In this document: one piece after another, positions 22,728 through 64,000 of the stretch | Layout of the letters: every line of letters starts with the position of its first letter | Numbering within the stretch: position 1 is the stretch's first letter | Position numbers and translations under genes: made by a program | Notes under the pieces: generated by a model | What the model was told of the DNA's origin: nothing | Seen by the model: only the letters and a program-made list of their open reading frames with translations | Databases searched by the model: none | Assembly: GCA_016288635.1 (NCBI GenBank) | Contig: JAEEKZ010000046.1 | Span: forward strand, 49,751-113,750 | Length of the DNA: 64,000 nucleotides | Source: Bacillales bacterium | GTDB lineage: Bacteria > Bacillota_I > Bacilli_A > RF39 > UBA660 | Direction of reading: 5' to 3'

Positions 22728-22763
22728 AGCTTTTTTTACTTGGCACAAGAAAGAGATGATAAA

Positions 22764-44907: not shown

Positions 44908-44940
44908 TAAATAAAAAAATATAAGTCTTTCGACTTATAT
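44908..44940 (-). terminator. Rho-independent terminator ending the Tad-like locus
   Basis: Hairpin ATAAGTC-tttc-GACTTAT followed by a T-run on the minus strand. Confidence 0.5.
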
Positions 44941-46566: not shown

Positions 46567-46593
46567 ACTTCAACCTCTTTAACTATTTAGGAC

Positions 46594-47324: not shown

Positions 47325-47342
47325 TTTTATATTATCCTTTTA

Positions 47343-48487: not shown

Positions 48488-49413
48488 TATTCTACCCCCA
48501 CATCTTCATTAAAGAATGTTTCTCCTTTTAGCATAAAGAAACCATTTATAATTATAATTGCATGTAGAATTACTTGAACATACCATAAATTTAATAACTT
48601 GGTTTGATATGAATCCATGCCAAGCATAAACTGGAATGCAACTGGTAAAAAGAACAAAGCTCCACCAAATGTTAAGAATTTTCTATGAGATGCTTTTCTA
48701 TCCATTTGGTCACGATATACACCTTCAACTAGTGAGTCAATATCCATTGACATGTTTTCCAATGCTTGCCCAGAATCTTTTGCACCTTCTTTTGTAATTT
48801 GCAAAAACAACTGGTGCATATTTTTTACCATATAAAATGGATATCTATTATTGAAATATGCTATAGATTCATCTATCGTACCATTTTGATATGACATATC
48901 AATCATAACTTTAATATCTGATTTAATTGGATCTTCAATAATTCCAGATTCATAAACTCCCTCAAGAGATTTAACAAAACTTTGTGTAGTATTAAACTCC
49001 ATAATGACGTTCGTAGTATATGTTTGAATTTGTTCAAAAATAAAATCAGAATATTTCTTTTTACTTTGTAAATAAGCCAAAAATGGAACGAATGTAATAG
49101 CAATTCCACAATAAATTATTGCCCAAATTATAGAAATAAAATATAAATACCCGATAATGGCAGCAAAGCCACCAATTAAGGTACACTGAACAATATATTG
49201 TTTAGATGTATAATTATATCCAAATTCTTGCATTTTCTTTTTAACTTCAGCAAAAGAATATGCTGCATATTTTTGCTGCAAATTATTAATATTTTTGTTT
49301 AAAGAATCAATTCCATTGCCAGTTTTTGCATTAGAATTATCTTTTGATTTAACAAAAATAATCAAAAGAGCAAGTCCTAACAGAATTGCTAATTCCAAAA
49401 AAGTTTCAGTCAT
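48487..49413 (-). CDS. tadB: TadB-like inner-membrane platform protein (T2SS-F domain)
   Basis: 308-aa membrane protein with a GspF-like architecture. It is translationally coupled (ATGA overlap) to the tadC-like gene. Confidence 0.6.
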   Translation of the reverse strand: MTETFLELAILLGLALLIIFVKSKDNSNAKTGNGIDSLNKNINNLQQKYAAYSFAEVKKKMQEFGYNYTSKQYIVQCTLIGGFAAIIGYLYFISIIWAIIYCGIAITFVPFLAYLQSKKKYSDFIFEQIQTYTTNVIMEFNTTQSFVKSLEGVYESGIIEDPIKSDIKVMIDMSYQNGTIDESIAYFNNRYPFYMVKNMHQLFLQITKEGAKDSGQALENMSMDIDSLVEGVYRDQMDRKASHRKFLTFGGALFFLPVAFQFMLGMDSYQTKLLNLWYVQVILHAIIIINGFFMLKGETFFNEDVGVE

Positions 49414-50830: not shown

Positions 50831-51664
50831 TTATTCATCTGCTACATATGTATAATCAGTATTCATCATTGAAACAGAATCAACATATTGCTTTAATCTA
50901 CTGAATTCTTCAGATTTAATATTTTCCCCTTCATTTTGAAATTTTTCTGAATAACTTGCTCCTCTTGGAATAGGGACTAGTCTAAAACCATATCCGCTTA
51001 GTTTTTCAATTGATTTTAAAACTTCCCAATCCTCTTTAACAACTTTAAACCACAAATGTGTAGGAATATCATATGGATCTTGAGCAAATACATCTTTACC
51101 TTTATTCATTACTTTATAAACTTTTATATGTTTAATAAAATTCTGAAAAACCATTCTATTGTTGCCCGCTCTTGAATTTGCTTCTATTCTTAAATATAAA
51201 TCAATATATGATCCTGGTAAAATAGAATTACCATAAGAAAGCGTATTATTAACGCTAAGATGATAAATATAATAAGTTCCATCAAACTCTTCATCTTCAT
51301 ATAAATTATTACAATTTTCAGAAGTAAGAGCATCTAAATAAACTAAACCATTGTTAGGGATGGAATATCCTTCCTTAATACAGTAATCGCCAGAAACGAT
51401 TTTTCCGTAATCACCTTGCTTAACAACATCCAACTTACTTAAAAATTTTTTACTAACATTTGCACGTCCAATACTTTCTGCTGTAATAATATCTCCTGGA
51501 TATAGCGCTTTCTTTGCAATATAAACTGTTCCTGGATTCTTACCTGTTGATACTAAGTTGTTATATACGACCCATATTACTATAGTAACTACTATAATAA
51601 TAAGCCCTCCAAGAGCTTTTTTATTACTAGCTATTGATCTTAAGTAATTAACGAATTGTGTCAT
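50831..51664 (-). CDS. CpaB/RcpC-like pilus-assembly protein (paralog 1 of 3)
   Basis: N-terminal TM helix, a SAF-like start (VYIAKKALYPGDIITAESI) and the conserved motif YGNSILPGSYIDLYL. Confidence 0.6.
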   Translation of the reverse strand: MTQFVNYLRSIASNKKALGGLIIIVVTIVIWVVYNNLVSTGKNPGTVYIAKKALYPGDIITAESIGRANVSKKFLSKLDVVKQGDYGKIVSGDYCIKEGYSIPNNGLVYLDALTSENCNNLYEDEEFDGTYYIYHLSVNNTLSYGNSILPGSYIDLYLRIEANSRAGNNRMVFQNFIKHIKVYKVMNKGKDVFAQDPYDIPTHLWFKVVKEDWEVLKSIEKLSGYGFRLVPIPRGASYSEKFQNEGENIKSEEFSRLKQYVDSVSMMNTDYTYVADE

Positions 51665-51666
51665 TT

Positions 51667-52452
51667 CTAGTTCCCCACATTACCATTATATCTTTGAATA
51701 ATAGCTGATAATTCATTTGAAACTTTTTTCGTTTCGCCATCATTTTGTCCATATTCAATTCCTCTTGGTACCGGAACTAAAGTCCAATCACCGCCCAATT
51801 CACGAATAAATGTTAATTCTTCGAATAAATCATTTTCAATAGCAAATAACATTAAACTTGGTTTAGTTGGAGTATCTTGAGCAAATACGTTTTTTCCGCT
51901 TCCGTCTCTAACTTCTAAAACCTGGATTTTTTCTACATACTTTTGGAATATCCTTCCGCCAGTATCAGGATTTTTTCCCTTTAAATATAAGTCAATATAA
52001 CTTCCAGGCGTAATAGAATTTCCATATGTAGATTTATCATCAACTGACATATAAAAAATACCATAGTTCTCATCTAATCCTTGCCAAATAGAATTTTGAA
52101 CTTCTTCTTTTTTTACAATTTGATTTCTATCTTTATAAAAAAAGCCAGATTTAGGGACAGTAACATTAACATTTGTATATAAATCATTTAAATTGTCTTT
52201 CGTATAAAAAATATTTAATTTTTTTGCAAGTGTTTCACTAATCTTTACTCTTACAAGCATAGTACTATCAATTTTAGTAACGGGTTTTATTGTTGCTCCT
52301 GCTGCCCAAACTTCAACAGATTTTGTTGACTGGCCAACTCTATAACTATAACCAACCCATAAAACAACAATACCAACAAGAACAGCAAATATTGTAACAG
52401 TATTTTTGTTCATTGCAAATCGCTTTATTCCAGCAATAATACCATTTCCCAT
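51667..52452 (-). CDS. CpaB/RcpC-like pilus-assembly protein (paralog 2 of 3)
   Basis: N-terminal TM helix and the shared motif YGNSITPGSYIDLYLKG. C-terminus (LVPVPRG) matches paralog 1. Confidence 0.6.
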   Translation of the reverse strand: MGNGIIAGIKRFAMNKNTVTIFAVLVGIVVLWVGYSYRVGQSTKSVEVWAAGATIKPVTKIDSTMLVRVKISETLAKKLNIFYTKDNLNDLYTNVNVTVPKSGFFYKDRNQIVKKEEVQNSIWQGLDENYGIFYMSVDDKSTYGNSITPGSYIDLYLKGKNPDTGGRIFQKYVEKIQVLEVRDGSGKNVFAQDTPTKPSLMLFAIENDLFEELTFIRELGGDWTLVPVPRGIEYGQNDGETKKVSNELSAIIQRYNGNVGN

Positions 52453-52469
52453 TTTTAATTCTCCTTTTT

Positions 52470-53249
52470 TTAATCAAGTGTACTTGAGTATAATTTACGC
52501 TTAATAAATTCTTCTGTAACTCTACCATCACAGGTGGTTTCTTCTTTCATATTACCAATTGGAACTGGATAAAAAGTTACTCCAGAAGTTGACCCTACTG
52601 TCAAATATTGATAATAATGATTTGAAACAATAAAATACATTATTGCAGGAGTACCATTATAACCTTTTTGACTAACATCCTTTAAAGATTTATCTCTAAC
52701 AGAATATACCTTTATACTACCAATATAGCACTCTTGCATTAACGTGCCTACTTCATCAACATATTTTGAATATATAGCCACATTTTGACCAGGCTTAATA
52801 GAATTGAAATCAGTATCAATAGAAGTAACATCTAACATATAAATTGTTTGATCATCTTCTACCTCACGCCAAATATCGTCTGGCATTTCCTCTTCACTTA
52901 CAATGACATCTTTATAAAATAAGCCCTTTTTAGGTATTGTAGCTGATATTTTAACATATTTACCAATAAGGTTATTTGCTTCAGATGCCTTGTAAATCAT
53001 CGAATCAGTTCTGCCAGATGCCTTATTTAAAGCTTTAAGATCAGCACTATTCATTTTCATTCTAATAAACATAGTAGCGTCAATTTGCGTTTTACCATTA
53101 ATAGTATCTTTAGCAACTAAAACCTCAACAGGACCAGTCAATATTTGAGTCCTATAATAATACCCGCCAACAATAACCGCTATTCCAGCAATAACGCCAA
53201 ATAACACAATAGTCTTTTTGTTTATAAAAAACTTTAATAACCCTTTCAT
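52470..53249 (-). CDS. CpaB/RcpC-like pilus-assembly protein (paralog 3 of 3, most diverged)
   Basis: Same size and topology as the other two. Motif SIKPGQNVAIYSKY and C-terminal FYPVPIGN. Confidence 0.55.
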   Translation of the reverse strand: MKGLLKFFINKKTIVLFGVIAGIAVIVGGYYYRTQILTGPVEVLVAKDTINGKTQIDATMFIRMKMNSADLKALNKASGRTDSMIYKASEANNLIGKYVKISATIPKKGLFYKDVIVSEEEMPDDIWREVEDDQTIYMLDVTSIDTDFNSIKPGQNVAIYSKYVDEVGTLMQECYIGSIKVYSVRDKSLKDVSQKGYNGTPAIMYFIVSNHYYQYLTVGSTSGVTFYPVPIGNMKEETTCDGRVTEEFIKRKLYSSTLD

Positions 53250-53268: not shown

Positions 53269-53685
53269 TTAATTAGCTTTTACGTATTTACCCGCAATAA
53301 TAGCATCAATATTATTTGTAATGTCGTATACAGCTTTATCTCCGTCAATATTAAAACTTGCTGATTTTGTAGAAATCCTAACACTAACCTTAGGTGGTGC
53401 TTCATAAATTGCTACAAACTCAATAGTATATGTTTGCGTTAAAGATGTTTCTTCAGCCATTCTTCTTATAAAGTTTTCCATAAATTTTTCTTTGTTAATC
53501 TTTAACTCACCATATGTTCTATAGTAACCTTTATCAACAGCATCAACCATAGATGCTTCAGCGATAGAATTTATTAAATATCTATCCTCAGTACTAGTTG
53601 TTGTAATACTTTGAACAAGTAGCATAATAACCACAACAAAAATACCTAATAAAATTAACCAATATCCCCACATTGCATTTCTCAT
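53269..53685 (-). CDS. Small membrane-anchored protein; first gene of the Tad-like operon
   Basis: 138 aa with one N-terminal TM helix. Preceded by an intergenic region containing the terminator of the upstream module. Confidence 0.35.
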   Translation of the reverse strand: MRNAMWGYWLILLGIFVVVIMLLVQSITTTSTEDRYLINSIAEASMVDAVDKGYYRTYGELKINKEKFMENFIRRMAEETSLTQTYTIEFVAIYEAPPKVSVRISTKSASFNIDGDKAVYDITNNIDAIIAGKYVKAN

Positions 53686-53779: not shown

Positions 53780-53814
53780 TTTTATAAAAAAAACATGAAA
53801 TTTTCATTTCATGT
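53780..53814 (-). terminator. Rho-independent terminator after giant gene 2
   Basis: Hairpin ACATGAAAT-tttc-ATTTCATGT followed by a T-run on the minus strand, placed directly after the stop at 53815. Confidence 0.5.
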
Positions 53815-56800
53815 TTATCTCCAAGAAGGTCCTCCAATTTGGCTCATTTCTCCTTCAACAATCTTATTAATCTTCTCAGCATATTGACCGCAACTACTGC
53901 CGCCACAATCAGGTTGATCAATAAATGTTTGCCAATAGCCATTTTGATTATTAGTTGTACTTCTTGAATTATCATCACTTAATCTACCAGAATAGAAAGT
54001 GAAATTAGGATTATCTCTATACTCATCTAAGAATGAACTATAGCAGAATATCTTTTCGAATTTATAAGTATCATAAGTGTAATCATAACACATTAATGTT
54101 TGATCAGTAAAACTCTTATCATCATTATAATTTCTTATTTTTTGAGCAAGACTTGGCGTCATGACAACTTTCAACACACCAAAGTCTGTTGGAGAACTTA
54201 TACCCTCGATTGAAGGTTGTCCTTCATAAACATCATCAGTTCCCAATTCTTTAGAAACATATATCAATTCTCCGTATGTTTGAATTTCATTAATTGTTAA
54301 TTTTGCTTTATCACTAATGATTTTATATCTATCTCCATATTCCTCAGAAACTGACCATGCATTCCAGTTATATGGAACGTATTCAGATCCAGGAGGACTA
54401 ACTACAGATATAACCTCATTTGGATCATTAGGATTGCCTTGAGGCACACGCAATGGTATTGGCGTAACATCAAGATGGAATTCTTTCTTAGAATAAATAC
54501 AATCTACACATTCGATGTCACAAACAGGGCAGCAATTCTCTCCTTTACATTCCTCTACTGTGGTTTCACATCCGTCTTCATCACATCCAGGAATACATGT
54601 AGGACAATTTCCTTGATTTACTCTATAGTAACATAAATACTCATACTCTGAATCATCATTAAATATTGGTTTCTCAGCACTATTATATTTACCCAAAACA
54701 GTATTTTCATCTTTGTGATTCTTAGCATTTAAAACTCTGCCTTCACCTTCATGATCGAAATATTCTCCAATATCACTGAATGTAAATGTAAATTTATGAA
54801 GTCCGCTCTCAGTTTCTAATTGAACTGGTAAGTCACCAAAATCAACTTTCATTCTTTGATTTTCATTATCTTCAAAATTTGAATCACTTCTTAAAACTAC
54901 AACACCACTTGGATATAAAGTAGCAAATAAGTTTGGAGAAGCATATTCATAATGAACTTCAATATTCTTTTTTGTAAATGTTTTATTACTCATATCTTGA
55001 GGATCAGATTCTAAAACATAATAACCGCTTCCTAAATTCATTTTTACATAATTAACAGATTCTTCTTGGAGAGATGCTGTAACACAACCGTTATTTCTAT
55101 TACCTGAATACTCATCATTTACACATGGATCTGTATTACTTCTCTCATCATCATATTTAATTGTGCTTCCACTTAACTCTTTTTTTATTTTACTTTTATC
55201 AATTTTAGTTGCCTTCAATGTAGTATCAGTTGCTGAACTTGACCAATCATCAGCACCATCAATATTAGAGATTTCTTCTTTTTCACCTCTAACAAGTGGA
55301 ACAGCATCGATACTCGGATCTTTTATCATATCAAAATAACCATAATCATAGTTTTTACTTTCATCATCTTGATATCCATATTTGAAGTTAATATCAGGTT
55401 CCGTATTATACTTCATATCATTATACCAACTAGTACAACGATTAATTTGGTCAATATAATTATTTATATTTTTGAATGCTGTATCTATTGCTGTTTTAGC
55501 GCTATCATATTCAGTCTGATATTCTGAAATCAATTCATTTAATTGCTCAGTAGCAGTTTTTCTTTCAACAATACAATTCTCGTAATCATATACTAAAATA
55601 TCTTTTTTCTTAGTAGCGGGATTATACTCATAATGAAAACCAGATGATTGTGCAGATTGTTCTGTAGCTGTCTCTGTTTCAAAATATTTTTGAACAGTTG
55701 AATCTAATGGCTTTCCTTCTTCGACTATATAACTGATATGATAATCAGTCGTTTTATCTTTATCTATTCGAATTTTATACTCAATTGGTTTTACAGGGCC
55801 TTCGACTTCATATGTAATAGTTTCAATTGAATAAGTTTTAGCTTGTGTACATTCATCAGGATTCTTCTCATTTTCTGGATTATATACACTAGCTGGTCTA
55901 TTTTTCTGTAAATATTGAAGTCTAACATAAGCCAAATTCATTTTATTAATATTATCATTAATAATTTCAATTTCCTTATTTACTTGTTCATTAAATAAAT
56001 CTAGATCTATTTCACGTCTATTATTATCTTCTGCAGAACTTGAATAACATGTTTTCTTGGCATTGTAAGCTGCAGACAATTTAAAGTATCTACCACTATT
56101 AGCATCTTGCATACCCGCAACAGAATAACCATATTTATATTTTTGATCTTCTAATAGGTTTCCATCTTTATCAAATTTACCGAAATCTTCTTTACATAAT
56201 ACTTTGCAATAATTATTTCCATAAACTATCTTTGTTTCTAATGAGTTACCAGCATAGTCTTCTTTTTTCTCAAGAACACATTTAACAATGTTATTATCTT
56301 CAATTTCTTTATATGTTAAATAGTTAACACTCTCTTTATCTTCATTAGATGTTTTAGTTAAATCACCAACTTGCTCACCATCAGAAAATGATATTTCTTC
56401 TGTTTCTTCAGGATTTTCACATGTATTGTGATATGAAACAAATGGTTTACATTTAGAACACTTTGCCTTATCAACTTTAACACCATCGATATAATATTTA
56501 TTATTTATAACACAACAGTCTTCATATTTAGTACCACAACATTTTTCGTTCCATTCATCAGAACCTGACAATACCTCACCAGCAGGTCCATAATATTTGC
56601 CACCAAACAATTCACACTTGTGTTCGCCAACATTAGAACACTCTTCATCATATTGTTGTTTTAAAATAACAGTAAATGGATCAAGGCCATAATAAATTGT
56701 ATTTCCGCTTCCATCGGTTTCAATACGACATTTACATTTATCTCTATAAGCTTCTTCAGATTCTAAAGGGGTTCCATCAGGCCCATAATAAGTGCCATTT

Positions 56801-58245
56801 TCATATTTACACAAATTTTTACTTTCACACTTTTCTTCAAAATCTTCTTTAGACTCTAACACTTCCGCACTAGGTCCATAATATATAGTATTACCATTAC
56901 TATCTTCTTCTTTACGACATCCACATGACTTTTTGTATGCTTCCTCAGAATCAACAGGTTTTCCGTCTACTCCGTAATAAGTATTACCTACTTTTTTACA
57001 TTTGTTTTTACACTGTTCGTTCCATTCATCTTCAGTCTGAAGAATATTATCTGGTGGATTTGGTGGAATTGGTCCATAATATCTAATAGAACCATCTATT
57101 TCTAATTTTACGCAAGAACAATCTTTTTTAAATTCCTCTTCTGTTACTTCTGTACCATCTTTTCCATAATAAATCCCATTTTCATGTTTACAAACATTCT
57201 CAGATTTACATTGTGCAATTTGATCACTTTCAGATCCAACTGTTGTTGGAGGATTTGGTCCATAATATATAGTAGGCTTTCCATCTAAATCAAAAGTTCT
57301 ACATTTACACTTGTCTTTATATTCATCAAATGACACAACATCTTGCTTTGTTTTATTACTATCTAAAACATAATATGTAAGTGGAGTCGTAGAATCATCT
57401 ACATTACAATCACAATAATATATAAATTCTTGCTCTGAATCAGCTGTTTTTCCATCAGGCAAAAACCAATATTTATACTCCGGTTGTTGAGTACAAGCAC
57501 ATTGATCTAAAAATACTTTTTTATCTTCAACAACTTTGCCATCAATGTAATATACAGCAGGTGTTTTTGATTCATCTACGCAACAACCTTCAACATCTTT
57601 ACAATTATTTTCTTCAATAGTTATATCATCACAATCAGCAATATACATTGGTTGTCTATTAGCTATTTTATACATTTGACTTTCTTTATGAAAATAATAT
57701 GGGTGTGCTTCATAAATTTTACAAGATTTGCCTTCTTCTATATTTTTTTCTATTTCACCGCATAGATCATGTGTGCATGAACCAGATCGAGAAAGATCAC
57801 GAATAGCATAATAGTATCTTTTTCCGCCATATTTCTCATCTATCCCCGCTAATTTTTGCAAGCATGCATAATCATCGTTACTGCAATTTGCCGCTTTACG
57901 AGCCGCATACCAGTATTTTCCTAGTGTTTTGCATAGTTCACTATTACATTCAACAGCATTATAGCGATCATTTGCTTTAAAGTGTAATCCGCCTTTCCCA
58001 CAAACAGCATCATGACCAACCAAATTAGTTAATTCGCATTTTTCGCCACGAACCTTAAATCTTGAATAAGTCGCTTGTAAATATTCATTTTCACCAACTT
58101 GTTTTCCTCTACCATATATATCCATAAATCCCAAGTTAGGATTTGAAAGATATTCTTCCGGTTCCGCAAAAACATTGCTAGGTATTAACAATAATAAAAA
58201 TATAAACGATAATAATAAACAATTTATTTTTTTCATATTAATCAC
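53815..58245 (-). CDS. Giant Cys-rich secreted protein (module 2 large subunit), candidate surface adhesin
   Basis: Signal peptide LLLIPSNVFA. 1476 aa with more than 100 Cys. Repeated CxxENGTYYGPDGTxxxSEEAYxxxCxC units, a central conserved domain, and a C-terminus VLKVVMTPSLAQKIRNYN...IGGPSWR shared with 2703-7373 and 59125-63075. Confidence 0.6.
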   Translation of the reverse strand: MINMKKINCLLLSFIFLLLLIPSNVFAEPEEYLSNPNLGFMDIYGRGKQVGENEYLQATYSRFKVRGEKCELTNLVGHDAVCGKGGLHFKANDRYNAVECNSELCKTLGKYWYAARKAANCSNDDYACLQKLAGIDEKYGGKRYYYAIRDLSRSGSCTHDLCGEIEKNIEEGKSCKIYEAHPYYFHKESQMYKIANRQPMYIADCDDITIEENNCKDVEGCCVDESKTPAVYYIDGKVVEDKKVFLDQCACTQQPEYKYWFLPDGKTADSEQEFIYYCDCNVDDSTTPLTYYVLDSNKTKQDVVSFDEYKDKCKCRTFDLDGKPTIYYGPNPPTTVGSESDQIAQCKSENVCKHENGIYYGKDGTEVTEEEFKKDCSCVKLEIDGSIRYYGPIPPNPPDNILQTEDEWNEQCKNKCKKVGNTYYGVDGKPVDSEEAYKKSCGCRKEEDSNGNTIYYGPSAEVLESKEDFEEKCESKNLCKYENGTYYGPDGTPLESEEAYRDKCKCRIETDGSGNTIYYGLDPFTVILKQQYDEECSNVGEHKCELFGGKYYGPAGEVLSGSDEWNEKCCGTKYEDCCVINNKYYIDGVKVDKAKCSKCKPFVSYHNTCENPEETEEISFSDGEQVGDLTKTSNEDKESVNYLTYKEIEDNNIVKCVLEKKEDYAGNSLETKIVYGNNYCKVLCKEDFGKFDKDGNLLEDQKYKYGYSVAGMQDANSGRYFKLSAAYNAKKTCYSSSAEDNNRREIDLDLFNEQVNKEIEIINDNINKMNLAYVRLQYLQKNRPASVYNPENEKNPDECTQAKTYSIETITYEVEGPVKPIEYKIRIDKDKTTDYHISYIVEEGKPLDSTVQKYFETETATEQSAQSSGFHYEYNPATKKKDILVYDYENCIVERKTATEQLNELISEYQTEYDSAKTAIDTAFKNINNYIDQINRCTSWYNDMKYNTEPDINFKYGYQDDESKNYDYGYFDMIKDPSIDAVPLVRGEKEEISNIDGADDWSSSATDTTLKATKIDKSKIKKELSGSTIKYDDERSNTDPCVNDEYSGNRNNGCVTASLQEESVNYVKMNLGSGYYVLESDPQDMSNKTFTKKNIEVHYEYASPNLFATLYPSGVVVLRSDSNFEDNENQRMKVDFGDLPVQLETESGLHKFTFTFSDIGEYFDHEGEGRVLNAKNHKDENTVLGKYNSAEKPIFNDDSEYEYLCYYRVNQGNCPTCIPGCDEDGCETTVEECKGENCCPVCDIECVDCIYSKKEFHLDVTPIPLRVPQGNPNDPNEVISVVSPPGSEYVPYNWNAWSVSEEYGDRYKIISDKAKLTINEIQTYGELIYVSKELGTDDVYEGQPSIEGISSPTDFGVLKVVMTPSLAQKIRNYNDDKSFTDQTLMCYDYTYDTYKFEKIFCYSSFLDEYRDNPNFTFYSGRLSDDNSRSTTNNQNGYWQTFIDQPDCGGSSCGQYAEKINKIVEGEMSQIGGPSWR

Positions 58246-59023
58246 GTTTTTTTCCTTTCATTACAATTACACTAGCCACAATAATAGTCGCCCCGCCAAT
58301 CATAATCATAACTGGCGCTAATAATGAATTCTCTTCTTTTGCATTATTTTTAGTAGGCTTTCCTTCCTTTTCTATTCCCCTTTTTACCTTTTCTTCACGT
58401 ATTTCTGTCGAATAAGATAACAAATCTAGTTTTGTATCAAATGAACTAACAAATGGCTGGCACAAATAATATTCCTCAATATCCTTACACTCTACATAGC
58501 TATAATAAGGATTAGTTCGAGGTAACGTTAAATCAACTACTCTCAAAATTTCGTTGTAACATCCACTTTTTTCTGTACCTACAATCGTAAAAACAAACTT
58601 ATCAGTTTTAAAGGAAGTATCATACCTAAAACTATACTTTCCATTTTTTGTATCTTCATAATTTATCGATGTTGGAATCTCGTTATAAGATGTATTAGCA
58701 TGACTTACATTCACCTTGAAATTTTCGCTTATATTTAATAATTCCACAGTCAAATATTTATCTTCAACAATAGGATAATATTCTCCAGGGCTATCAAAAA
58801 AAGCCTCTTCTTCGCCGCCTTCCCTATATTTATCATAACAGGCATCTTCTACTTCACACACCTCGATGTGCGGCGTATAAATTGCTTTTACGTTGTTTGC
58901 TTCCCTTATCAACGCTCCTTTTTTATCAGCATCACATGTAGCAGCTTTAACTCTAGAACAACCTAGAAACAAAATACTAACTACCAATAAAAAAGATAAT
59001 ATTTTCATAATCTTACTTTTCAT
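58238..59023 (-). CDS. Small type-I membrane protein (module 2 small subunit)
   Basis: Signal peptide, about 210-aa ectodomain with conserved Cys (ATCDADKKGALIREANN ... YLCQPF), a C-terminal TM helix and a basic tail KGKKRD. The stop overlaps the large-gene start by 8 nt. Confidence 0.55.
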   Translation of the reverse strand: MKSKIMKILSFLLVVSILFLGCSRVKAATCDADKKGALIREANNVKAIYTPHIEVCEVEDACYDKYREGGEEEAFFDSPGEYYPIVEDKYLTVELLNISENFKVNVSHANTSYNEIPTSINYEDTKNGKYSFRYDTSFKTDKFVFTIVGTEKSGCYNEILRVVDLTLPRTNPYYSYVECKDIEEYYLCQPFVSSFDTKLDLLSYSTEIREEKVKRGIEKEGKPTKNNAKEENSLLAPVMIMIGGATIIVASVIVMKGKKRD

Positions 59024-59048
59024 TTTCTTGTCCTACCTTACTAAATTA

Positions 59049-59076
59049 ATTTTATCATAATTTTTAATTTATGCAA
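59049..59076 (-). promoter_or_regulatory. Putative promoter of module 2 (TTGCAT, 16-nt spacer, TAAAAT); duplicated upstream of module 3
   Basis: On the minus strand: TTGCAT aaattaaaaattatga TAAAAT, followed by the RBS AAGGTAGGA and ATG. An almost identical 40-nt block lies at 63880-63926. Confidence 0.35.
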
Positions 59077-59091
59077 CTTTATTATAGCAAA

Positions 59092-59124
59092 ATAAAAGAA
59101 AAAACATGAATAAATAATTCATGT
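59092..59124 (-). terminator. Rho-independent terminator after giant gene 3
   Basis: Hairpin ACATGAAT-aaata-ATTCATGT followed by a T-run on the minus strand, placed directly after the stop at 59125. Confidence 0.5.
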
Positions 59125-62100
59125 TTATTTCCAAGCTGGTCCACCTATTTTTTCCATATCTCCATCTTTAATTTTAACTATTGCACTACCATATTTTTCA
59201 CCAAATCTTTCTCCACTCGAAGATGACTGAGAAAGGAATGTTGTCCAATAATCTCCATTTGCAGTATTATCTCTAGCATTTATATCTTGAATTCTGCTAT
59301 GACTAAATGTGAAATTCGGATCATCCACATATTCATCTAAAAATGAGCTGTAGCAGAATATTTTTTCAAAAACGGTTGAACCATATACATAATCGTAACA
59401 AGTTAGAGTTGAATTGGTGTAAGATTTTTCTCTACTATTATAATCCCTGATTTTTTGAGCTAAACTAGGAGTCATAACAACTTTTAATACACCAAAATCC
59501 TTTGAAGAAGAACCAATTCCTTCAATTACAGGACTACCTTCAAAATCATTATTTGTTCCTAAATCTTTGGATACATATATTAATTCACCATACGTTTGAA
59601 TTTCATCAATAGTTAATTTTGCTTTTTCATTTAAAATAATATATTTTTGACCATAATCATCATAGGTTGCCCACGTATTCCAATTCCAATTGTATGGAAC
59701 AAATTCAATACCATTTGGATTAACAACACTTATAACATTATAGGTTGGATTTCCGCCAGGTCCTGGTGATGGTGAAGTACCAGATGGTATGCTTGTTGTA
59801 TGTACCGGTATTGGAGATACATCTAACTGATACTCTTTTGAAGTATAAATACAATCAACACACACAGGATTACAATATTGGCAGCAATCTTCTCCTAGGC
59901 ATTCTTCTTCTGTAGTCGACGTACATTCATCATCATCACACGTCGGTTCACAAGTTTTACAAGTTGTTTGATTTACTCTATAATAGCAAACATAATTATA
60001 ATCTTTTTGCTCTAATGGGAAAATAGAGTATTTTTCATTATATTTACCCAGAACAGTTTCAACATTTGTGTTTTGCTCTGCATCATAAATTCTACCAGTA
60101 GAATCCTCTCTATCAAAGTATTCTCCGATATTACTAAAATTAAATGTGAATTTATGAGGGCCATTTGACGTCTCTATTTGAACAGGTAATCCATTAAATT
60201 CAACATATTCTTCTTTTTCAAAATCACCACCATAATTTTCTCTTAAAATAACTGCTCCACTTGGATACAATGTTGCAAATATATTTGGAGATGTAAACTT
60301 ATATGTTTGTTCTATACTCTTTTTCATATATGTATAATTAACAAAATGCTGGGGGTTGGTTGTTACAGAATGATAGTGTCCTTTCTGAGGAATATCTGTA
60401 ATATAAGTAACAGAATCATCTGTACCATCTTCATCATAACATTTAATTCCGCTTCTATCATCTGAATACTTATCATCAACACAAGGTAGTATTTGAGGAT
60501 TTGTACTTATATACCACTCCCAAGAGCCATCATCATTATATGTTGTCGTTTTAGCCGTCCATTTTTCTTCTTCTGATATTGGAGCCAAATCTTGTCTTTC
60601 CATTTTAGTATATTTGCCTTCATCTAAATCTCTAATTGCATCATAATATGCCCCATCATTATTGCCATTCTCAGCATAACCATATTTATACGTAATTATA
60701 GATTCCGGTTTATAATTAAATTCGTTTGGCCAATTAATCGTACAATCCTCTATTTCTTGAATATAAGCTTGAATCTGCTTGAGAGCGTTCTCAATATTCC
60801 TATTACTAGTATCATAAGTGGATTGTATATCAGCAACATAATCTGTATAATCCTCATATGCATCGTAATTACTGCCATAACAATCTAATGTATCTTGACA
60901 TGGATAAGATTCCTCTCCAATATAATTCCATTGAGCATCATATTTAGGTCTCCAACAAGTAGTATCATAAGGTTTAGAATCAAATGTATACGTAGTATCA
61001 GTCCACGATGTTGTTGGAGAAGGAGTTAATTCACCCTTTTCTTCCACTTTAAAACTTAAATGATGTTCAGTTGATGTATCATTATCCAAACTAATTTCAT
61101 ATTTAGGATATTTGTATTTAGAAAGATTAGCTATAGCGGACGCAGTATAATAATACGAATTAATTATATAATCCTTTGGAGAACACAAATCTGTCCCATT
61201 CGACAACTCATTCTGATCGTGTTTAAACTCTTCAGTTTTTAACCACGTTAACGTTGCTAGCGCATCATTCATTGTATTAATATTATCGTTAATTATTTTA
61301 ACTTGGGTATATACATCTTCGTTAAATTTATCCAAATTAATTTCCCTTGTTTCTTTATCATCATCATTAGAAGTTGTATAACAAGTTCTCTTGGATGTAA
61401 ATTCTGCATTTAATCTAAAATATCTGCCACTATTAGCTTCTTGCATTCCTGATACAGAATATCCAAAAGGAAAAGGATCTGATCTCAATGTTCCATCATC
61501 CTCAAATTTTCCGACATCGTCTTTACAGAATACCTTACAATATCTATTATTAGGATCTATTACCTTAATATTTTGTAATGTATTCTCTGCATAATCGGTT
61601 TGTTTTGTAAGAACACATTTTATAATATCATCGTCATCTACTTCTTTATAAGTAATAAAGTTAATGCTTTCTTTATTTTCGAATTTTGTTTTTAATAACT
61701 CTCCCTTAGTTTCTCCACCATCATAACCTTCTATATCACACATTGGATCTAAATCTTTAAGCTGACATGAAGAATGGTATGAAACGGCTGGTTCACATGA
61801 AAGACACTTCTTTTTATCATCTACTTTTGTGCCCTCAGGGTCTAAATAATACTGACCATCCAAAACACAACATTTATCATAATGTTCTTCACAACAATTA
61901 GCAATATATGTTGCTATATTTACTGGAGACCTATTCCAATAATAAGTATTTCCGCTTTTACAGCATCCATCCTGATCGCATGGACAAGATTTTTTATATT
62001 CGGTTTCGCCTACTTCTCCGCCACCAACATAAAAATGGCCTTCATATTTACAACAAGTAGTTGTAGACTTACACGGGTTATTACATTTTAAATTAAAATC

Positions 62101-63075
62101 CGCTTCTGAAGACAATTCTTCTCCATTTGGGCCATAATAAGTATTGCCTACTTTTTCGCACTTATGTGCTCCTGGACATTTTTGATTAAATTCTGCCTCA
62201 GAATTTAGTACTTCGCCATTTGGACCATAATAAGTATTGCCTACTTTTTCACACTTATGTGCACCAGAACATTTTTGATTAAACTCGGCCTCAGAATTTA
62301 GCACTTCGCCATTTGGGCCATAATAAGTATTGCCTACTTTTTCACACTTATGTGCTCCTGGACATTTTTGATTAAACTCTGCTTCAGAGTTTAGTACTTC
62401 TCCGTTTGGACCATAATAAGTATTACCTACCTTTTCACACTTATGTGCTCCTGGACATTTTTGATTAAACTCTGCTTCAGAGTTTAGTACTTCTCCGTTT
62501 GGACCATAATAAGTATTACCTACCTTTTCACACTTATGCTCCTCTGTTGTAGGAACTAATGTACAATCTACAGCGTACATATTTTGAGCATCATTACGTT
62601 CAACACATATACCCAATTTATTGTCATTATATCGAGCTTTACCATAATATACAGTACATTTATTGTTGTTCATCTCATCTTTTATAGTTTTACACGGTTC
62701 TCCAGAACAACTGCCAGTTCTTGCAACTTGTCTAATTGCCGAATATACATCCCAAGTATTATAAATACCAGAACCATATTTAGCATATGCAGAATATACA
62801 AATTTAGCAAAATAATCATCAGATGTTTCTGTTAAATAATAATAATAGGGCTCACCTTTACTGTTTTTTATTTTGGCACCCTCATTAAGACACCAAGCAT
62901 ATTTACCATCAATTATAAATTTTGTAGAATTTCCAGAACCATTCATTTTAAGTTGAACACCGCAATCAGCTGCACCCAAAGCATCAACTTTAACTGGAAA
63001 CACCAGTATGAAAGCAAAGCATATTATTAATAAAAATATACATTTTATATTTTTTCTCATCTTCATTATAATCAC
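59125..63075 (-). CDS. Giant Cys-rich secreted protein (module 3 large subunit), candidate surface adhesin
   Basis: Signal peptide ...FPVKVDA. 1316 aa. Five tandem 31-aa repeats KCEKVGNTYYGPNGEVLNSEAEFNQKCPGAH. Central and C-terminal domains are homologous to the other two giants and end GGPAWK. Confidence 0.6.
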   Translation of the reverse strand: MIIMKMRKNIKCIFLLIICFAFILVFPVKVDALGAADCGVQLKMNGSGNSTKFIIDGKYAWCLNEGAKIKNSKGEPYYYYLTETSDDYFAKFVYSAYAKYGSGIYNTWDVYSAIRQVARTGSCSGEPCKTIKDEMNNNKCTVYYGKARYNDNKLGICVERNDAQNMYAVDCTLVPTTEEHKCEKVGNTYYGPNGEVLNSEAEFNQKCPGAHKCEKVGNTYYGPNGEVLNSEAEFNQKCPGAHKCEKVGNTYYGPNGEVLNSEAEFNQKCSGAHKCEKVGNTYYGPNGEVLNSEAEFNQKCPGAHKCEKVGNTYYGPNGEELSSEADFNLKCNNPCKSTTTCCKYEGHFYVGGGEVGETEYKKSCPCDQDGCCKSGNTYYWNRSPVNIATYIANCCEEHYDKCCVLDGQYYLDPEGTKVDDKKKCLSCEPAVSYHSSCQLKDLDPMCDIEGYDGGETKGELLKTKFENKESINFITYKEVDDDDIIKCVLTKQTDYAENTLQNIKVIDPNNRYCKVFCKDDVGKFEDDGTLRSDPFPFGYSVSGMQEANSGRYFRLNAEFTSKRTCYTTSNDDDKETREINLDKFNEDVYTQVKIINDNINTMNDALATLTWLKTEEFKHDQNELSNGTDLCSPKDYIINSYYYTASAIANLSKYKYPKYEISLDNDTSTEHHLSFKVEEKGELTPSPTTSWTDTTYTFDSKPYDTTCWRPKYDAQWNYIGEESYPCQDTLDCYGSNYDAYEDYTDYVADIQSTYDTSNRNIENALKQIQAYIQEIEDCTINWPNEFNYKPESIITYKYGYAENGNNDGAYYDAIRDLDEGKYTKMERQDLAPISEEEKWTAKTTTYNDDGSWEWYISTNPQILPCVDDKYSDDRSGIKCYDEDGTDDSVTYITDIPQKGHYHSVTTNPQHFVNYTYMKKSIEQTYKFTSPNIFATLYPSGAVILRENYGGDFEKEEYVEFNGLPVQIETSNGPHKFTFNFSNIGEYFDREDSTGRIYDAEQNTNVETVLGKYNEKYSIFPLEQKDYNYVCYYRVNQTTCKTCEPTCDDDECTSTTEEECLGEDCCQYCNPVCVDCIYTSKEYQLDVSPIPVHTTSIPSGTSPSPGPGGNPTYNVISVVNPNGIEFVPYNWNWNTWATYDDYGQKYIILNEKAKLTIDEIQTYGELIYVSKDLGTNNDFEGSPVIEGIGSSSKDFGVLKVVMTPSLAQKIRDYNSREKSYTNSTLTCYDYVYGSTVFEKIFCYSSFLDEYVDDPNFTFSHSRIQDINARDNTANGDYWTTFLSQSSSSGERFGEKYGSAIVKIKDGDMEKIGGPAWK
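62070..62537 (-). repeat. Five tandem 93-bp coding repeats inside giant gene 3 (the two most 3' copies identical over 93 bp)
   Basis: Direct DNA repeats with a 93-nt period seen in the sequence at 62101-62555. They encode four near-identical and one diverged 31-aa unit. Confidence 0.8.
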
Positions 63076-63872
63076 CTGTATTTCCTTTTAAGAATAATTA
63101 TGCCAGCGCCAATCAACCCCATTCCGCAAGCTGTAGCGGCAAATATATAAACATATTCGATTTTATTATCTTTATTTTTATTTTCACTATTGCTTTTATT
63201 ATTGATTCTTGTCGTTTTTTCATTTTCAACCATTTGCCACACTTCAGCTGCATTTAAATGACTAACATCAGTATTAATAAATGGCTGACACAAAAAATAG
63301 TCTTCTAATCCCTCACACCTACTAACTTGATAAAATTCATTACCTTTAGGATGAGTAAGAGTTAACTCTCTAATATGTACTCCTTCACATCCTGATTCAG
63401 CGGAACCATATATATTAATACTAAACTTTCCAACTTTATCTATAGCATCCCATTCAAAAGAATATTTATTATTTTTAAAATCACTATATACTATTTTTTG
63501 GGAATATGCAGACGATCTATTATGTTTAACTACAGCATAAAAATTTTGGGAAACATTATAAATATCTATTTCAAGATATAAATCATTAACATATGGTAAA
63601 TATCCCTCTTCTCCAGATGAAGTTGTACCATATGGAGCATCGCCATGCATTTCACCATCTTCACCTAAAAAACTATTTATTGCATCTTCATGGCATTTTT
63701 CTCCTGGATAACATATTTCAACATGAGGAACATATGAAACCCTAATATTTTGTGCTTCTCTAATCAAAGCCGCTTTTTCATCAGCAGTACATTCTGCATA
63801 TACATTTGTTGCAAACAAAGCAACAAAAACAGTTAATATAATTAATAAAAATTTCTTAGATAATTTAGTCAT
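63072..63872 (-). CDS. Small type-I membrane protein (module 3 small subunit)
   Basis: Signal peptide, ectodomain with ECTADEKAALIREAQN ... YFLCQPF, a C-terminal TM helix and a KRKYR tail. The stop overlaps the large-gene start (ATGA). Confidence 0.55.
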   Translation of the reverse strand: MTKLSKKFLLIILTVFVALFATNVYAECTADEKAALIREAQNIRVSYVPHVEICYPGEKCHEDAINSFLGEDGEMHGDAPYGTTSSGEEGYLPYVNDLYLEIDIYNVSQNFYAVVKHNRSSAYSQKIVYSDFKNNKYSFEWDAIDKVGKFSINIYGSAESGCEGVHIRELTLTHPKGNEFYQVSRCEGLEDYFLCQPFINTDVSHLNAAEVWQMVENEKTTRINNKSNSENKNKDNKIEYVYIFAATACGMGLIGAGIIILKRKYR

Positions 63873-63898
63873 AATTTATACCTTACCTTACTAAATTA

Positions 63899-63926
63899 AT
63901 TTTATCATAATTTTTAATTAATGCAA
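63899..63926 (-). promoter_or_regulatory. Putative promoter of module 3 (TTGCAT, 16-nt spacer, TAAAAT)
   Basis: Same sequence block as at 59049-59076. It is followed by the RBS AAGGTAAGGTA and the ATG at 63872. Confidence 0.35.
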
Positions 63927-64000
63927 TGTTCTCAATACTATTTTTATTGGATTTCCTGGCATAAAAAAATCCCATATATAATATGGAATTTATAAAATTT

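What the first reader, a model, noticed from the sequence alone, without database searches (positions are those of the whole stretch)
53815..63872. Tandem small-membrane-protein plus giant Cys-rich secreted-protein modules of an unrecognised family
Two back-to-back two-gene units each encode a type-I membrane protein of about 260 aa followed by a 1300-1500-aa secreted protein with over 100 cysteines. The small protein has a signal peptide, a Cys-containing ectodomain with ...LCQPF..., a TM helix and a basic tail. The giants share three things: an N-terminal domain with AIRxxxRxGSC, 30-aa CxK.GNTYYGxDGxxVxxEEEFxxxC repeats, and a central domain (KCVLxKxxDYAxN...YCKVxCKxD...YGYSVxGMQxANSGRYFxL). 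Each unit has its own duplicated promoter block and its own terminator, so the two are expressed independently. I cannot match any motif to a known adhesin, toxin or S-layer family.
Basis: seen in the sequence. Interest (0 to 1): 0.85.

Follow-up and report, generated by a model that had tools for sequence, protein, structure and literature searches.

The report
Giant surface protein plus membrane partner
Uncultured gut Bacilli carry an unnamed two-gene unit, a small membrane protein plus a giant cysteine-rich secreted protein that is probably an adhesin, and in this lineage the unit sits at the head of a Tad-like pilus operon, which gives a new handle on how these bacteria attach.

Summary
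Two tandem units on the minus strand each encode a ~260-aa type-I membrane protein (S) and a 1316- or 1476-aa secreted giant (G), and each unit has a duplicated promoter block and its own hairpin terminator. The cysteine count is wrong: the giants have 58 and 65 cysteines, not more than 100. (1) The pair belongs to a larger locus, directly upstream of a divergent Tad/type-IVc-like pilus operon (DUF5411, three CpaB-like genes, TadA ATPase, two membrane proteins, two pilin-like and two pseudopilin-like genes, a TadZ-like gene). (2) A third family member at 2703-7373 is a natural S-G fusion. (3) The family is widespread in gut metagenomes, with at least 221 clusters at 50% identity. Across 96 G genes, S lies immediately upstream in 71 of 72 testable cases, and DUF5411 or another S-G unit lies immediately downstream in 89 of 91. 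No Pfam, NCBIfam, PDB-sequence or fold match exists for S or for the ~900-aa C-terminal region of G. Most family heads, and the fused copy, look like divergent thioester (TED) adhesin domains. The heads of G1 and G2 do not reach significance. My best reading is a membrane-tethered fibrillar adhesin module linked to a Gram-positive Tad-like pilus.

The parts
63072..63872 (-). S1: small type-I membrane partner (266 aa). It has a signal peptide, a ~190-aa ectodomain with 6 Cys, a TM segment and a basic tail.
   Evidence: ORF. Hydropathy and Cys positions. 33% identical to S2. Family alignment A6 with invariant N97, C155, P168, N171, C179, L187, C188 in S2 numbering.
59125..63075 (-). G1: giant secreted protein (1316 aa, 58 Cys). 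It has a small Cys-rich head, 31-aa repeats and a conserved ~900-aa C-terminal region ending in GGPAWK. Its start overlaps the S1 stop by 4 nt.
62118..62538 (-). Tandem 93-nt repeat (4.5 copies, 93% matches) encoding the near-identical 31-aa CEKVGNTYYGPNGEVLNSEAEFNQKC units of G1.
   Evidence: The AF2 model gives each unit as a beta-hairpin plus a short strand plus a helix, pLDDT 70-88.
58238..59023 (-). S2: small type-I membrane partner (261 aa).
53815..58245 (-). G2: giant secreted protein (1476 aa, 65 Cys) ending in GGPSWR. Its start overlaps S2 by 8 nt.
63883..63927 (-). Promoter-like block upstream of S1 (TTGCAT, 16 nt, TG-n-TAAAAT, then the ribosome-binding site). It is duplicated before S2.
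   Evidence: 42/43 identical.
59033..59077 (-). The same promoter-like block upstream of S2.
59090..59126 (-). Intrinsic-terminator-like hairpin plus U-run after G1.
   Evidence: -8.9 kcal/mol, z -6.3.
53783..53816 (-). Intrinsic-terminator-like hairpin plus U-run after G2.
   Evidence: -10.5 kcal/mol, z -4.4.
53269..53685 (-). DUF5411 protein (138 aa, N-terminal TM segment). It is the invariant downstream neighbour of the S-G unit(s).
   Evidence: Pfam PF17424, E 5e-51. Adjacent to G, or to another S-G unit, in 89 of 91 cases.
50831..53249 (-). Three tandem CpaB/RcpC-like genes (259, 261 and 277 aa).
   Evidence: Sub-threshold RcpC and TIGR03177 hits, E 1e-5 to 5e-3. One to three copies at the same position in relatives.
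49431..50816 (-). TadA/VirB11-type secretion ATPase (461 aa).
   Evidence: T2SSE E 1.2e-27. VirB11 and TadA NCBIfam models E ~1e-31, below their curated cut-offs. 34.5% identical to pLS20 TadA.
47696..49413 (-). Two polytopic membrane proteins in the TadB/TadC position (308 and 263 aa).
   Evidence: Position and hydrophobic segments. No Pfam T2SSF hit. The TadC-position HMM hits the pLS20 ORF that follows tadA at E 3.5e-6, within a set of only 12 proteins.
47082..47606 (-). Two small Cys-rich pilin-like genes (87 and 80 aa) with the conserved N-terminus MKEAT(G/E)EL followed by a hydrophobic helix.
   Evidence: N-terminus conserved across loci.
46066..47073 (-). Two pseudopilin-like (TadE/F-position) genes (159 and 166 aa).
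   Evidence: No Pfam hit.
44940..45953 (-). TadZ/CpaE-like gene (337 aa) with a degenerate Walker-A-like motif GAGATT.
   Evidence: Sequence and conserved position. No Pfam hit, so the assignment is an inference from motif and position.
2703..7373 (-). G3: third family member, a natural S-G fusion (1556 aa, 56 Cys). Order: signal peptide, S ectodomain, TM segment (~aa 218-241), basic loop, second signal-like segment ending ...FTAHA|EE, TED-like head, repeats, conserved C-terminal region ending GGPSWK.
   Evidence: Hit by the G HMM. 34% identical to G2 over the C-terminal 409 aa. Sequence and hydropathy. Its ortholog P0006 comes from an independent assembly. Head profile A8 scores 54.8 bits, but the P0006 head is one of the A8 sequences.

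Best explanation
S and G together form a membrane-tethered fibrillar adhesin module that belongs to a divergent Gram-positive Tad/type-IVc-like pilus locus. Both proteins are exported by Sec. S stays in the membrane as a type-I protein. Its Cys-stabilised ectodomain holds the conserved ~900-aa C-terminal 'base' of G, which always ends in GP(S/A)W(K/R). The Cys-bridged 31-aa repeat stalk projects a variable N-terminal head away from the cell to bind a target. In most family members, and in the fused copy G3, the head is a divergent thioester-type (TED-like) domain, which would bind covalently. In G1 and G2 it is a smaller Cys-rich head of uncertain relationship. DUF5411 and the Tad-like machine (CpaB-like proteins, TadA, two platform proteins, Cys-rich pilins) are co-inherited with the module, and in single-copy relatives they are co-transcribed with it. 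They probably present the adhesin or cooperate with it at the cell surface. In this lineage the module was duplicated together with its promoter and terminator, giving two (with G3, three) adhesin variants.

Shown: the gene anatomy, export and topology signals, near-obligate S-G-DUF5411 synteny, the natural fusion, the family size, and the absence of known anchoring motifs.

Inferred: the physical S-G interaction, the adhesin function, any thioester chemistry, and cooperation with the pilus.
For: Topology signals: S has a signal peptide, a TM segment and a basic tail, while G has only a signal peptide.

Coupling of S and G: S is immediately upstream of G in 71 of 72 cases, and the usual overlap is 4 nt. 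The one exception is the fusion gene G3. That gene places S, its TM segment, a basic loop, and then the signal peptide and body of G in one ORF. This topology puts both ectodomains outside the cell. The fusion is seen again in an independent assembly.

Anchoring: G has no LPXTG motif and no wall-binding Pfam domain, so it needs a partner to stay on the cell.

Adhesin-like architecture: the C-terminal region is conserved, while the head and the repeat number vary. 175 of 189 distinct C-termini end in G[PL][SA]W[KR].

Link to the pilus operon: DUF5411 or another S-G unit follows G in 89 of 91 cases. TadA lies within 3.5 kb in 42 of 43 loci that have a short DUF5411.

TED-like head in the family: in 163 distinct N-termini, one Cys is conserved at 99%, one Arg at 100% and one Gln at 95%. 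The motifs YC[LI]DP and xQR[FY] fit the published TED motifs [YFL]C-phi-zeta and phi-Q-zeta-phi-phi (PMC6194298). One of 41 members hits Pfam TED at 7.6e-5 and TIGR03934 at 0.006. The head profile scores 16.6 bits against the pLS20 TED, against a maximum of 10.2 bits in 3000 shuffles, and hhalign gives 88.8% probability. In an unbiased search of 177,635 PDB sequences the top hit is the TED pilus-tip adhesin Cpa (2xi9, E 0.016), with the Cys motif and the helix motif in register.

Precedent: in pLS20 the TED adhesin gene 34, which is needed for conjugation in liquid (PMC8092201), lies just upstream of a DUF5411-like ORF, tadA and TadB/C-position genes.
Against: There is no direct evidence that S binds G or that G adheres to anything.

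The heads of G1 and G2 themselves are not significantly similar to the TED-like head profile (A8 E 0.55 and 2; hhalign probability 0.35%). Their AF2 model is of low confidence.

The TQXX-phi-W motif of TEDs is absent from the family. In its place stands [ST]xxA[LI]R.

The C-terminal model is only of moderate confidence (pLDDT 66) and has no informative fold match, so its role as a 'base' is a guess.

A second clade keeps S-G-DUF5411 but lacks adjacent Tad genes: 18 of 20 loci with a long DUF5411 have no TadA within 3.5 kb. G3 lies 46 kb from the pilus operon. The link to the pilus is therefore not universal.

Firmicutes usually avoid cysteines in exported proteins (my own knowledge), so how 58-65 cysteines are handled is unexplained.
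Confidence: 0.5

Rival explanations
1. G is a structural part of the Tad-like machine rather than an adhesin. It could be a wall-spanning conduit or collar that stands in for the secretin complex that Gram-positive bacteria lack, with S and DUF5411 linking it to the membrane platform.
For: S-G-DUF5411 shows near-obligate synteny with CpaB-TadA-TadB-TadC in the main clade. The C-terminal region is large, conserved and of an unknown fold. G sits next to the CpaB-like genes, and in classical tad loci the secretin gene rcpA follows rcpC/cpaB (my own knowledge).
Against: The head and the repeat number vary greatly between close relatives. The module is duplicated with diverged heads. A fused copy lies 46 kb from the operon. 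A whole clade keeps S-G-DUF5411 without adjacent Tad genes, next to a sortase and a VWA protein. Most heads look TED-like. All of these features are typical of adhesins and not of core machine parts.
Confidence: 0.15
2. G is carried on the Tad-like filament itself as a tip or shaft-associated adhesin, and S acts only as an assembly chaperone or loading factor rather than as the final anchor.
For: The known TED adhesin Cpa is a pilus-tip protein, and it is the top PDB hit of the head profile. The operon is linked to pilin and pseudopilin genes. The near-invariant extreme C-terminus GP(S/A)W(K/R) could be a docking signal.
Against: G has a Sec-type signal peptide, not a prepilin (class III) signal peptide. 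The fusion G3 tethers G to a TM segment unless it is cleaved. Clade 2 lacks adjacent Tad genes. No sortase gene lies next to the locus in the window, where the flanking genes are housekeeping genes.
Confidence: 0.2
3. The locus is a remnant or variant of a conjugation or mating-pair system, and G mediates cell-to-cell contact for DNA transfer, as the TED adhesin of pLS20 does.
For: The layout parallels pLS20 gene 34-...-tadA (PMC8092201). The ATPase scores about equally on the VirB11, TrbB and TadA conjugal-transfer models. A weak T4SS_pilin hit lies downstream in L007.
Against: No VirB4, VirD4 or relaxase gene lies nearby. The locus sits among housekeeping genes (ezrA, lepA, efp, murB, murG, htpG, ftsK) at conserved chromosomal sites in several relatives. 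tblastn finds no homolog of the G C-terminal region in 72,556 plasmids or 50,697 phage records.
Confidence: 0.08
4. G is a secreted toxin or effector and S is its membrane-bound immunity or export partner.
For: G is a large secreted protein encoded next to a small membrane protein, and the genes are translationally coupled.
Against: Polymorphic toxins keep a conserved N-terminal part and vary the C-terminal toxin domain. Here the pattern is reversed. No toxin, RHS/YD or peptidase domain was found by Pfam, NCBIfam or PADLOC-independent fold searches. The natural S-G fusion places both parts outside the same cell.
Confidence: 0.04

Closest known systems
TIE proteins / thioester-domain (TED) adhesins of Gram-positive bacteria (Cpa, SfbI, BaTIE, pLS20 TIE/p34)
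   Same: Both are Sec-exported fibrillar surface proteins with a distal head on a repeat stalk. In most family members and in G3, the head has the Cys motif YC[LI]DP about 70 residues from the start and a late xQR[FY] motif. These match the published TED motifs and align with Cys68 and Gln256 of pLS20 TIE (PMC6194298, PMC8092201). Like class II TEDs, the long heads carry a beta-rich insert before the Gln strand. In pLS20 the TED gene also lies upstream of tadA.
   Different: No window protein reaches Pfam TED or TIGR03934, and only 1 of 41 family members gives even a weak hit. The TQXX-phi-W motif is replaced by [ST]xxA[LI]R. The stalk is built of Cys-bridged 31-aa units and not of CnaB or ester domains. 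There is no LPXTG/sortase anchor. Instead there is a ~900-aa novel C-terminal region and a separate membrane partner. The heads of G1 and G2 are not significantly TED-like.
Tad/Flp (type IVc) pilus systems (Aggregatibacter tad, Caulobacter cpa, Bifidobacterium breve tad)
   Same: The locus has a TadA/CpaF-type ATPase, two polytopic membrane proteins directly after it, CpaB/RcpC-like proteins, small pilin-like genes followed by two pseudopilin-like genes, and a TadZ-like gene.
   Different: Only the ATPase passes a Pfam threshold. The pilins lack the G/XXXXEY Flp motif and carry MKEATGEL instead. The pilins are Cys-rich. No prepilin peptidase gene lies in the operon. DUF5411 and the S-G unit are not parts of classical tad loci.
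Predicted DUF5411-CpaF-PilC secretion-related operon of gut Clostridia (Miller et al. 2022, PMC9523054)
   Same: A DUF5411 protein is encoded next to a CpaF-type ATPase and a platform protein, in Gram-positive gut bacteria, together with a large surface or 'cell-invasion-like' protein.
   Different: That system was described in Roseburia, Ruminococcus and Eubacterium, with an internalin-like protein. S and G were not reported there. Neither system has been studied experimentally.
Fibrillar adhesins in general (stalk plus adhesive domain; PMC9210967)
   Same: G has a variable number of tandem stalk repeats, a variable distal domain and a conserved anchoring end. It evolves quickly and has paralogous copies.
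   Different: The anchoring end and the partner protein belong to no described anchor type (LPXTG, SLH, LysM, choline-binding, lipobox).

Membership tests
Thioester domain (TED) adhesins | Bond-forming Cys in a [YFL]C-phi-zeta motif (PMC6194298) | tested here: inconclusive
   Family: the Cys is 99% conserved, mostly as YC[LIM]D or FC[LR][DN]. Window: G1 has WCLN, G3 has VCIN and G2 has VCGK, so none fits the motif strictly.
Thioester domain (TED) adhesins | [quoted passage not shown] | tested here: inconclusive
   Family: the Gln is 95% conserved, mostly as xQR[FY]phi. Its best site in pLS20 TIE is the published Gln256, but the score is not significant. G1 has AQNMY (fits), G2 has RQPMY and G3 has TQKYI (both fit in part). 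The motif is weak, so a match by chance is possible.
Thioester domain (TED) adhesins | TQXX-phi-W motif on helix alpha2 | tested here: not met
   The aligned position reads [ST]xxA[LI]R, with the Arg 100% conserved and no Gln or Trp. The source paper notes that this Gln and Trp are not essential for bond formation.
Thioester domain (TED) adhesins | Significant match to curated TED models (Pfam PF08341, TIGR03934) or to solved TEDs | tested here: inconclusive
   Window G1, G2 and G3 give no hit. One of 41 family members hits TED at 7.6e-5 and TQXA_dom at 0.006. Head profile A8: the top PDB hit is Cpa (2xi9), E 0.016. Against the pLS20 TED: 16.6 bits, above all 3000 shuffles, and hhalign 88.8%. 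G1 and G2 against A8: not significant.
Thioester domain (TED) adhesins | TED fold (six-stranded beta-barrel plus three-helix bundle) with the Cys and Gln side chains adjacent | tested here: inconclusive
Thioester domain (TED) adhesins | An actual Cys-Gln thioester bond (-17 Da; reacts with amines) | not testable with these tools
   This needs mass spectrometry of recombinant protein.
Sortase-anchored MSCRAMM / LPXTG surface proteins | C-terminal LPXTG-type motif followed by a TM segment and a basic tail | tested here: not met
   G1 and G2 have no LPXTG-like motif and end in GGPAWK and GGPSWR with no TM segment. No Cna, SdrG or similar Pfam domain was found.
RHS/YD-repeat proteins and S-layer (SLH) proteins | RHS/YD repeats or SLH domains detectable by Pfam or NCBIfam | tested here: not met
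   Pfam and NCBIfam give no such hits for G1, G2 or 41 family members.
Tad/Flp type IVc pilus system (the operon context) | TadA/CpaF secretion ATPase | tested here: met
   T2SSE E 1.2e-27. TIGR03819 6.6e-31 and VirB11 1.9e-32, both below their curated equivalog cut-offs.
Tad/Flp type IVc pilus system (the operon context) | TadB/TadC platform proteins with a T2SSF domain | tested here: inconclusive
   Two polytopic proteins sit in the right position, but they give no Pfam T2SSF hit. There is a weak HMM link to the pLS20 ORFs that follow tadA.
Tad/Flp type IVc pilus system (the operon context) | Flp prepilin with the G/XXXXEY processing motif, and a TadV prepilin peptidase | tested here: not met
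   The pilin-like genes start with MKEAT(G/E)EL followed by a hydrophobic helix and have no EY motif. No peptidase gene lies in the operon. The rest of the genome was not searched.
Tad/Flp type IVc pilus system (the operon context) | CpaB/RcpC protein | tested here: inconclusive
   Hits are below threshold: RcpC 1.2e-4 and 4.9e-3, TIGR03177 1e-5 and 6e-5. The third copy gives no hit.

The most novel reading that the evidence does not exclude
S, G and DUF5411 make up a previously undescribed surface-display pathway of wall-bearing, low-GC gut Bacilli. In this reading a giant disulfide-rich adhesin is not attached by sortase. It is captured instead through its near-invariant C-terminal region and its GP(S/A)W(K/R)-COOH tail by a dedicated type-I membrane receptor (S). 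DUF5411, which in one clade is fused to a C39-like cysteine peptidase and sits next to a sortase, would process or load it. A Tad-like filament would push or present the complex through the wall. The C-terminal ~900 residues would then be a new fold, and the tail a new sorting signal.
Probability: 0.25. Interest if true: 0.8.

Novelty: new variant of a known kind. Interest (0 to 1): 0.62.

Why it matters
These genes come from uncultured Bacilli that are common in human and animal gut metagenomes, and nothing is known about how those bacteria attach. The work defines two unnamed protein families (S and G) and links them, with DUF5411, to a very divergent Gram-positive Tad-like pilus. It also supplies a natural gene fusion as genetic evidence that S and G act together. 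If the head domains really form thioesters, these would be covalent adhesins that use a new, sortase-independent anchoring solution. Exported proteins with 20-78 cysteines are unusual for Firmicutes, which raises the question of how disulfides or metal sites are formed outside the cell in these anaerobes. The parallel with the pLS20 conjugation operon (TED adhesin, then a DUF5411-like ORF, then TadA) suggests an ancient shared cassette of 'adhesin plus Tad-like motor' in Gram-positive bacteria.

Tried and rejected
- The word-indexed protein search found only three close relatives with G2 alone, and the same three with an 8-sequence alignment. The exhaustive profile search was needed to find the family.
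- Pfam, NCBIfam and PDB-sequence searches of S, G and most operon proteins found nothing. The only hit was a marginal DUF2963 match in the G1 repeats.
- The afdb50 fold library was not available.
- Whole-length N-terminal profiles missed TEDs in the PDB. Only the trimmed 103-position head profile found Cpa.
- The short heads of G1 and G2 compared with the long TED-like heads by hhalign were not significant, so I do not claim a TED for G1 or G2.
- tblastn of the G C-terminal region found no match in plasmids or phages, so I rejected a mobile-element origin.
- I considered and rejected a lipoprotein reading of S2 (LFLGC), because the paralog and the orthologs lack a lipobox.
- I considered and rejected genetic code 4 (Mollicutes), because all ORFs are intact under table 11.


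Full report
**1. What is at the coordinates**

All genes of the region lie on the minus strand. S1 (63072-63872, 266 aa) overlaps G1 (59125-63075, 1316 aa) by 4 nt. S2 (58238-59023, 261 aa) overlaps G2 (53815-58245, 1476 aa) by 8 nt. Hydropathy analysis shows that S1 and S2 each have an N-terminal signal-like segment, a C-terminal TM segment and a basic tail. G1 and G2 have only the N-terminal signal. G1 and G2 are 41% identical over 1184 aa, and S1 and S2 are 33% identical.

G1 has five near-identical 31-aa repeats. These appear in the DNA as a 93-nt unit in 4.5 copies at 62118-62538. G2 has about eleven degenerate repeats.

A 43-nt block with promoter-like hexamers and a ribosome-binding site is 42/43 identical upstream of S1 and S2. 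G1 and G2 are each followed by a stable AT-rich hairpin and a U-run, at -8.9 and -10.5 kcal/mol, and no shuffle folded as well.

One claim is wrong. The giants have 58 and 65 cysteines, not more than 100.

**2. Surroundings**

Directly downstream on the same strand lie the following genes:
- a DUF5411 protein (Pfam E 5e-51);
- three CpaB/RcpC-like proteins, with sub-threshold hits only;
- a TadA/VirB11-type ATPase (T2SSE E 1e-27);
- two polytopic membrane proteins in the TadB/TadC position;
- two small Cys-rich pilin-like genes;
- two pseudopilin-like genes;
- a TadZ-like gene;
- then ezrA.

The four pilin-like and pseudopilin-like genes share conserved N-termini, MKEATGEL and MKE(S/G)..G, across many loci. 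The rest of the window holds housekeeping genes: htpG, ftsK, glmM, a Mur ligase, a GH25 lysozyme, iPGM and thiI. The locus is therefore chromosomal, in a wall-bearing low-GC organism (GC 29%). Record titles of related loci read 'uncultured Bacilli bacterium', mostly from gut metagenome-assembled genomes.

**3. The family**

The word-indexed search found only three close relatives of G2. An exhaustive profile search with the C-terminal ~900 aa found 221 clusters at 50% identity (148 of them at E<=1e-10). Nearly all are proteins of 950-1550 aa that match through their C-terminal 400-830 residues. Scans of genome and metagenome collections gave 3 and 110 relatives, the latter mostly from human gut. 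Every public copy I looked up is named 'hypothetical protein'.

Family members have 20-78 cysteines, with a median of 39. Of 189 distinct C-termini, 175 end exactly in G[PL][SA]W[KR]. tblastn found no homolog in 72,556 plasmid or 50,697 phage records.

**4. Pairing and synteny**

I built HMMs for S, G, DUF5411, CpaB-like, TadA and the two platform proteins. I searched them against all ORFs of 91 sequences, the window plus 90 fetched loci. Among 96 G genes of at least 800 aa, the results were as follows.
- 71 of the 72 with enough upstream sequence have S immediately upstream. The commonest spacing is a 4-nt overlap.
- 89 of the 91 with enough downstream sequence are followed at once by DUF5411 (83 cases, with 10-21 nt spacers in single-copy loci) or by a further S-G unit (6 cases).
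- The G genes fall into 45 clusters at 90% identity and 22 at 50%, so this is not one clone counted many times.
- TadA lies within 3.5 kb in 42 of 43 loci with a short DUF5411.

A second clade carries a ~390-aa DUF5411 protein fused to a C39-like peptidase domain. It is followed by a sortase, a VWA protein and an ABC exporter, not by Tad genes. The invariant core is therefore S-G-DUF5411. The Tad linkage holds for the clade that includes the window.

**5. A natural fusion**

The single G gene without an upstream S is in the window itself. ORF 2703-7373 (1556 aa), between htpG and ftsQ-like/murB/murG, is hit by the G HMM. It is 34% identical to G2 over the C-terminal 409 aa. Its first ~215 residues are an S ectodomain. 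They are followed by the S TM segment, a basic loop (SRKPSKKGHKKKK), and a second signal-like segment that ends in FTAHA|EE. Then comes a complete G.

The same fusion, P0006, occurs in an independent Logan assembly, and the exact window sequence is also in NCBI and IMG. The topology of the fusion puts both ectodomains outside the cell. This is classical gene-fusion evidence that S and G act together.

**6. Structure**

**7. The head domain**

In an alignment of 163 distinct N-termini, only three positions are essentially invariant:
- a Cys (99%), mostly in YC[LIM]D;
- an Arg (100%), in A[LI]R;
- a late Gln (95%), mostly in xQR[FY].

Published TED definitions name [YFL]C-phi-zeta, phi-Q-zeta-phi-phi and TQXX-phi-W, and state that only the Cys and Gln are universal (PMC6194298).

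Four results support a relationship to TEDs.
- One of 41 family members hits Pfam TED (7.6e-5) and TIGR03934 (0.006).
- A 100-position head profile scores 16.6 bits against the TED of the pLS20 adhesin p34. The maximum over 3000 shuffles was 10.2 bits, and hhalign gives 88.8% probability. The alignment places the family Cys on the functionally essential Cys68 (PMC8092201).
- The same head profile, searched against all 177,635 distinct PDB sequences, returns the streptococcal pilus-tip TED adhesin Cpa (2xi9) as top hit (E 0.016). The Cys motif and the helix motif are in register.
- The best site of the Gln-strand profile in p34 is the published Gln256, although that score is not significant.

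I conclude that most family heads, and that of G3 (54.8 bits to the head profile, which includes the head of its ortholog P0006), are probably divergent TED-like domains.

The heads of G1 and G2 are shorter (~140-190 aa). They keep the Cys, the AIR motif and a Q-x-M-Y motif in the same order. They are not significantly similar to the long heads. For G1 and G2 the TED idea remains only a lead.

**8. A precedent**

In plasmid pLS20 the TED adhesin gene is followed by three small ORFs, tadA and two membrane proteins. The window TadA is 34.5% identical to pLS20 TadA (E 5e-44). The DUF5411 HMM hits the ORF just before pLS20 tadA (E 2.4e-5), and the TadC-position HMM hits the second ORF after it (E 3.5e-6). 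These E-values come from a search of only 12 proteins. A DUF5411-CpaF-PilC operon has also been predicted, but not studied, in gut Clostridia (PMC9523054). The association of an adhesin gene with a Tad-like motor therefore recurs in Gram-positive bacteria.

**9. Interpretation**

The best-supported model is a membrane-tethered fibrillar adhesin. S would be the anchor. The conserved C-terminal region of G and its GP(S/A)W(K/R) tail would be the docking end. The Cys-bridged repeats would form the stalk, and a variable N-terminal domain would form the binding head. The module is co-inherited with DUF5411 and, in this clade, with a Tad-like pilus.

The anatomy, the synteny and the fusion are shown. 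The S-G interaction, the adhesion, any thioester chemistry and cooperation with the pilus are inferred.

The rivals are a machine component, a pilus-borne adhesin, a mating adhesin and a toxin-immunity pair. Each is set out in the Rival explanations section with the test that would separate it from the main model.

**10. Verdict**

It is not an isolated curiosity. It is part of a larger and equally uncharacterised pilus-associated locus, with a third, fused copy in the same window. I rate it a new variant of a known kind (a pilus-associated fibrillar adhesin) with two new protein families, and I give it moderate-to-high interest.

Noticed in passing
window 10702-11073 (-), with neighbour 11083-12006 (-): A 123-aa ORF starts MNKKGSTILEMLIVIVAF. 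This is a classical type-IV prepilin or ComGC-like N-terminus (G|STILE with Glu at +5). It is unrelated in sequence to the MKEATGEL pilins of the Tad-like operon, so the organism probably has a second type-IV filament or competence system.
   Followed up: no
window 47082-47606 (-): The two small pilin-like proteins are themselves Cys-rich (for example HCAAAVNCECAEGSNTCECQYY). Cysteine-rich exported proteins therefore seem to be a feature of the whole locus and not only of the giants.
   Followed up: partly
L063 12691-17285 (and about 18 similar loci, L061-L089): In a second clade the DUF5411 protein is fused to a Peptidase_C39_2 domain (E 1e-5). It is followed by a sortase and an 824-aa VWA-domain protein, not by Tad genes. 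This hints that DUF5411 takes part in processing or attaching surface proteins.
   Followed up: partly
L063 5580-7027 (-); ORFs of similar size and position in L004 6336-7845 (-) and L005 5718-7225 (-); L008 3784-5270 (-): In L063 and L008 a divergently transcribed pair, a Metallophos phosphoesterase and an Rce1-like CPBP intramembrane protease, sits directly upstream of S. L004 and L005 have minus-strand ORFs of matching size in the same place, which I did not scan. The pair is absent from L002, and the window ends before this position.
   Followed up: no
L092 (pLS20, NC_015148) 6477-12586: In the pLS20 conjugation operon the thioester adhesin gene is followed by a DUF5411-like ORF (9446-9826), tadA, and TadB/C-position genes. 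This is the same order as in the window locus.
   Followed up: partly
L005 8048-12219: The G gene of this mouse-gut genome is split by a frameshift. The last 123 aa, ending in GGPAWK, are in a separate ORF. This is either a pseudogene or an assembly error.
   Followed up: no
L010 15153-17629: A PDDEXK_2 transposase-like gene and a 502-aa ORF are inserted between the TadC-position gene and the pilin genes of an otherwise syntenic locus.
   Followed up: no
L004 18891-19265, L005 18889-19248, L007 10939-11298: In relatives a conserved 116-124-aa ORF lies downstream of the TadZ-like gene. It contains ..FC..TA.IWQ..G followed by a hydrophobic stretch and gives a weak T4SS_pilin (PF18895) hit in L007. 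It is missing from the window, where ezrA follows directly.
   Followed up: no
window 17952-23282: This is the only stretch of the window transcribed from the plus strand (glmM, ftsK and others), and the GC skew changes sign there. A single tRNA-Ala gene lies at 10241-10317 (-).
   Followed up: no
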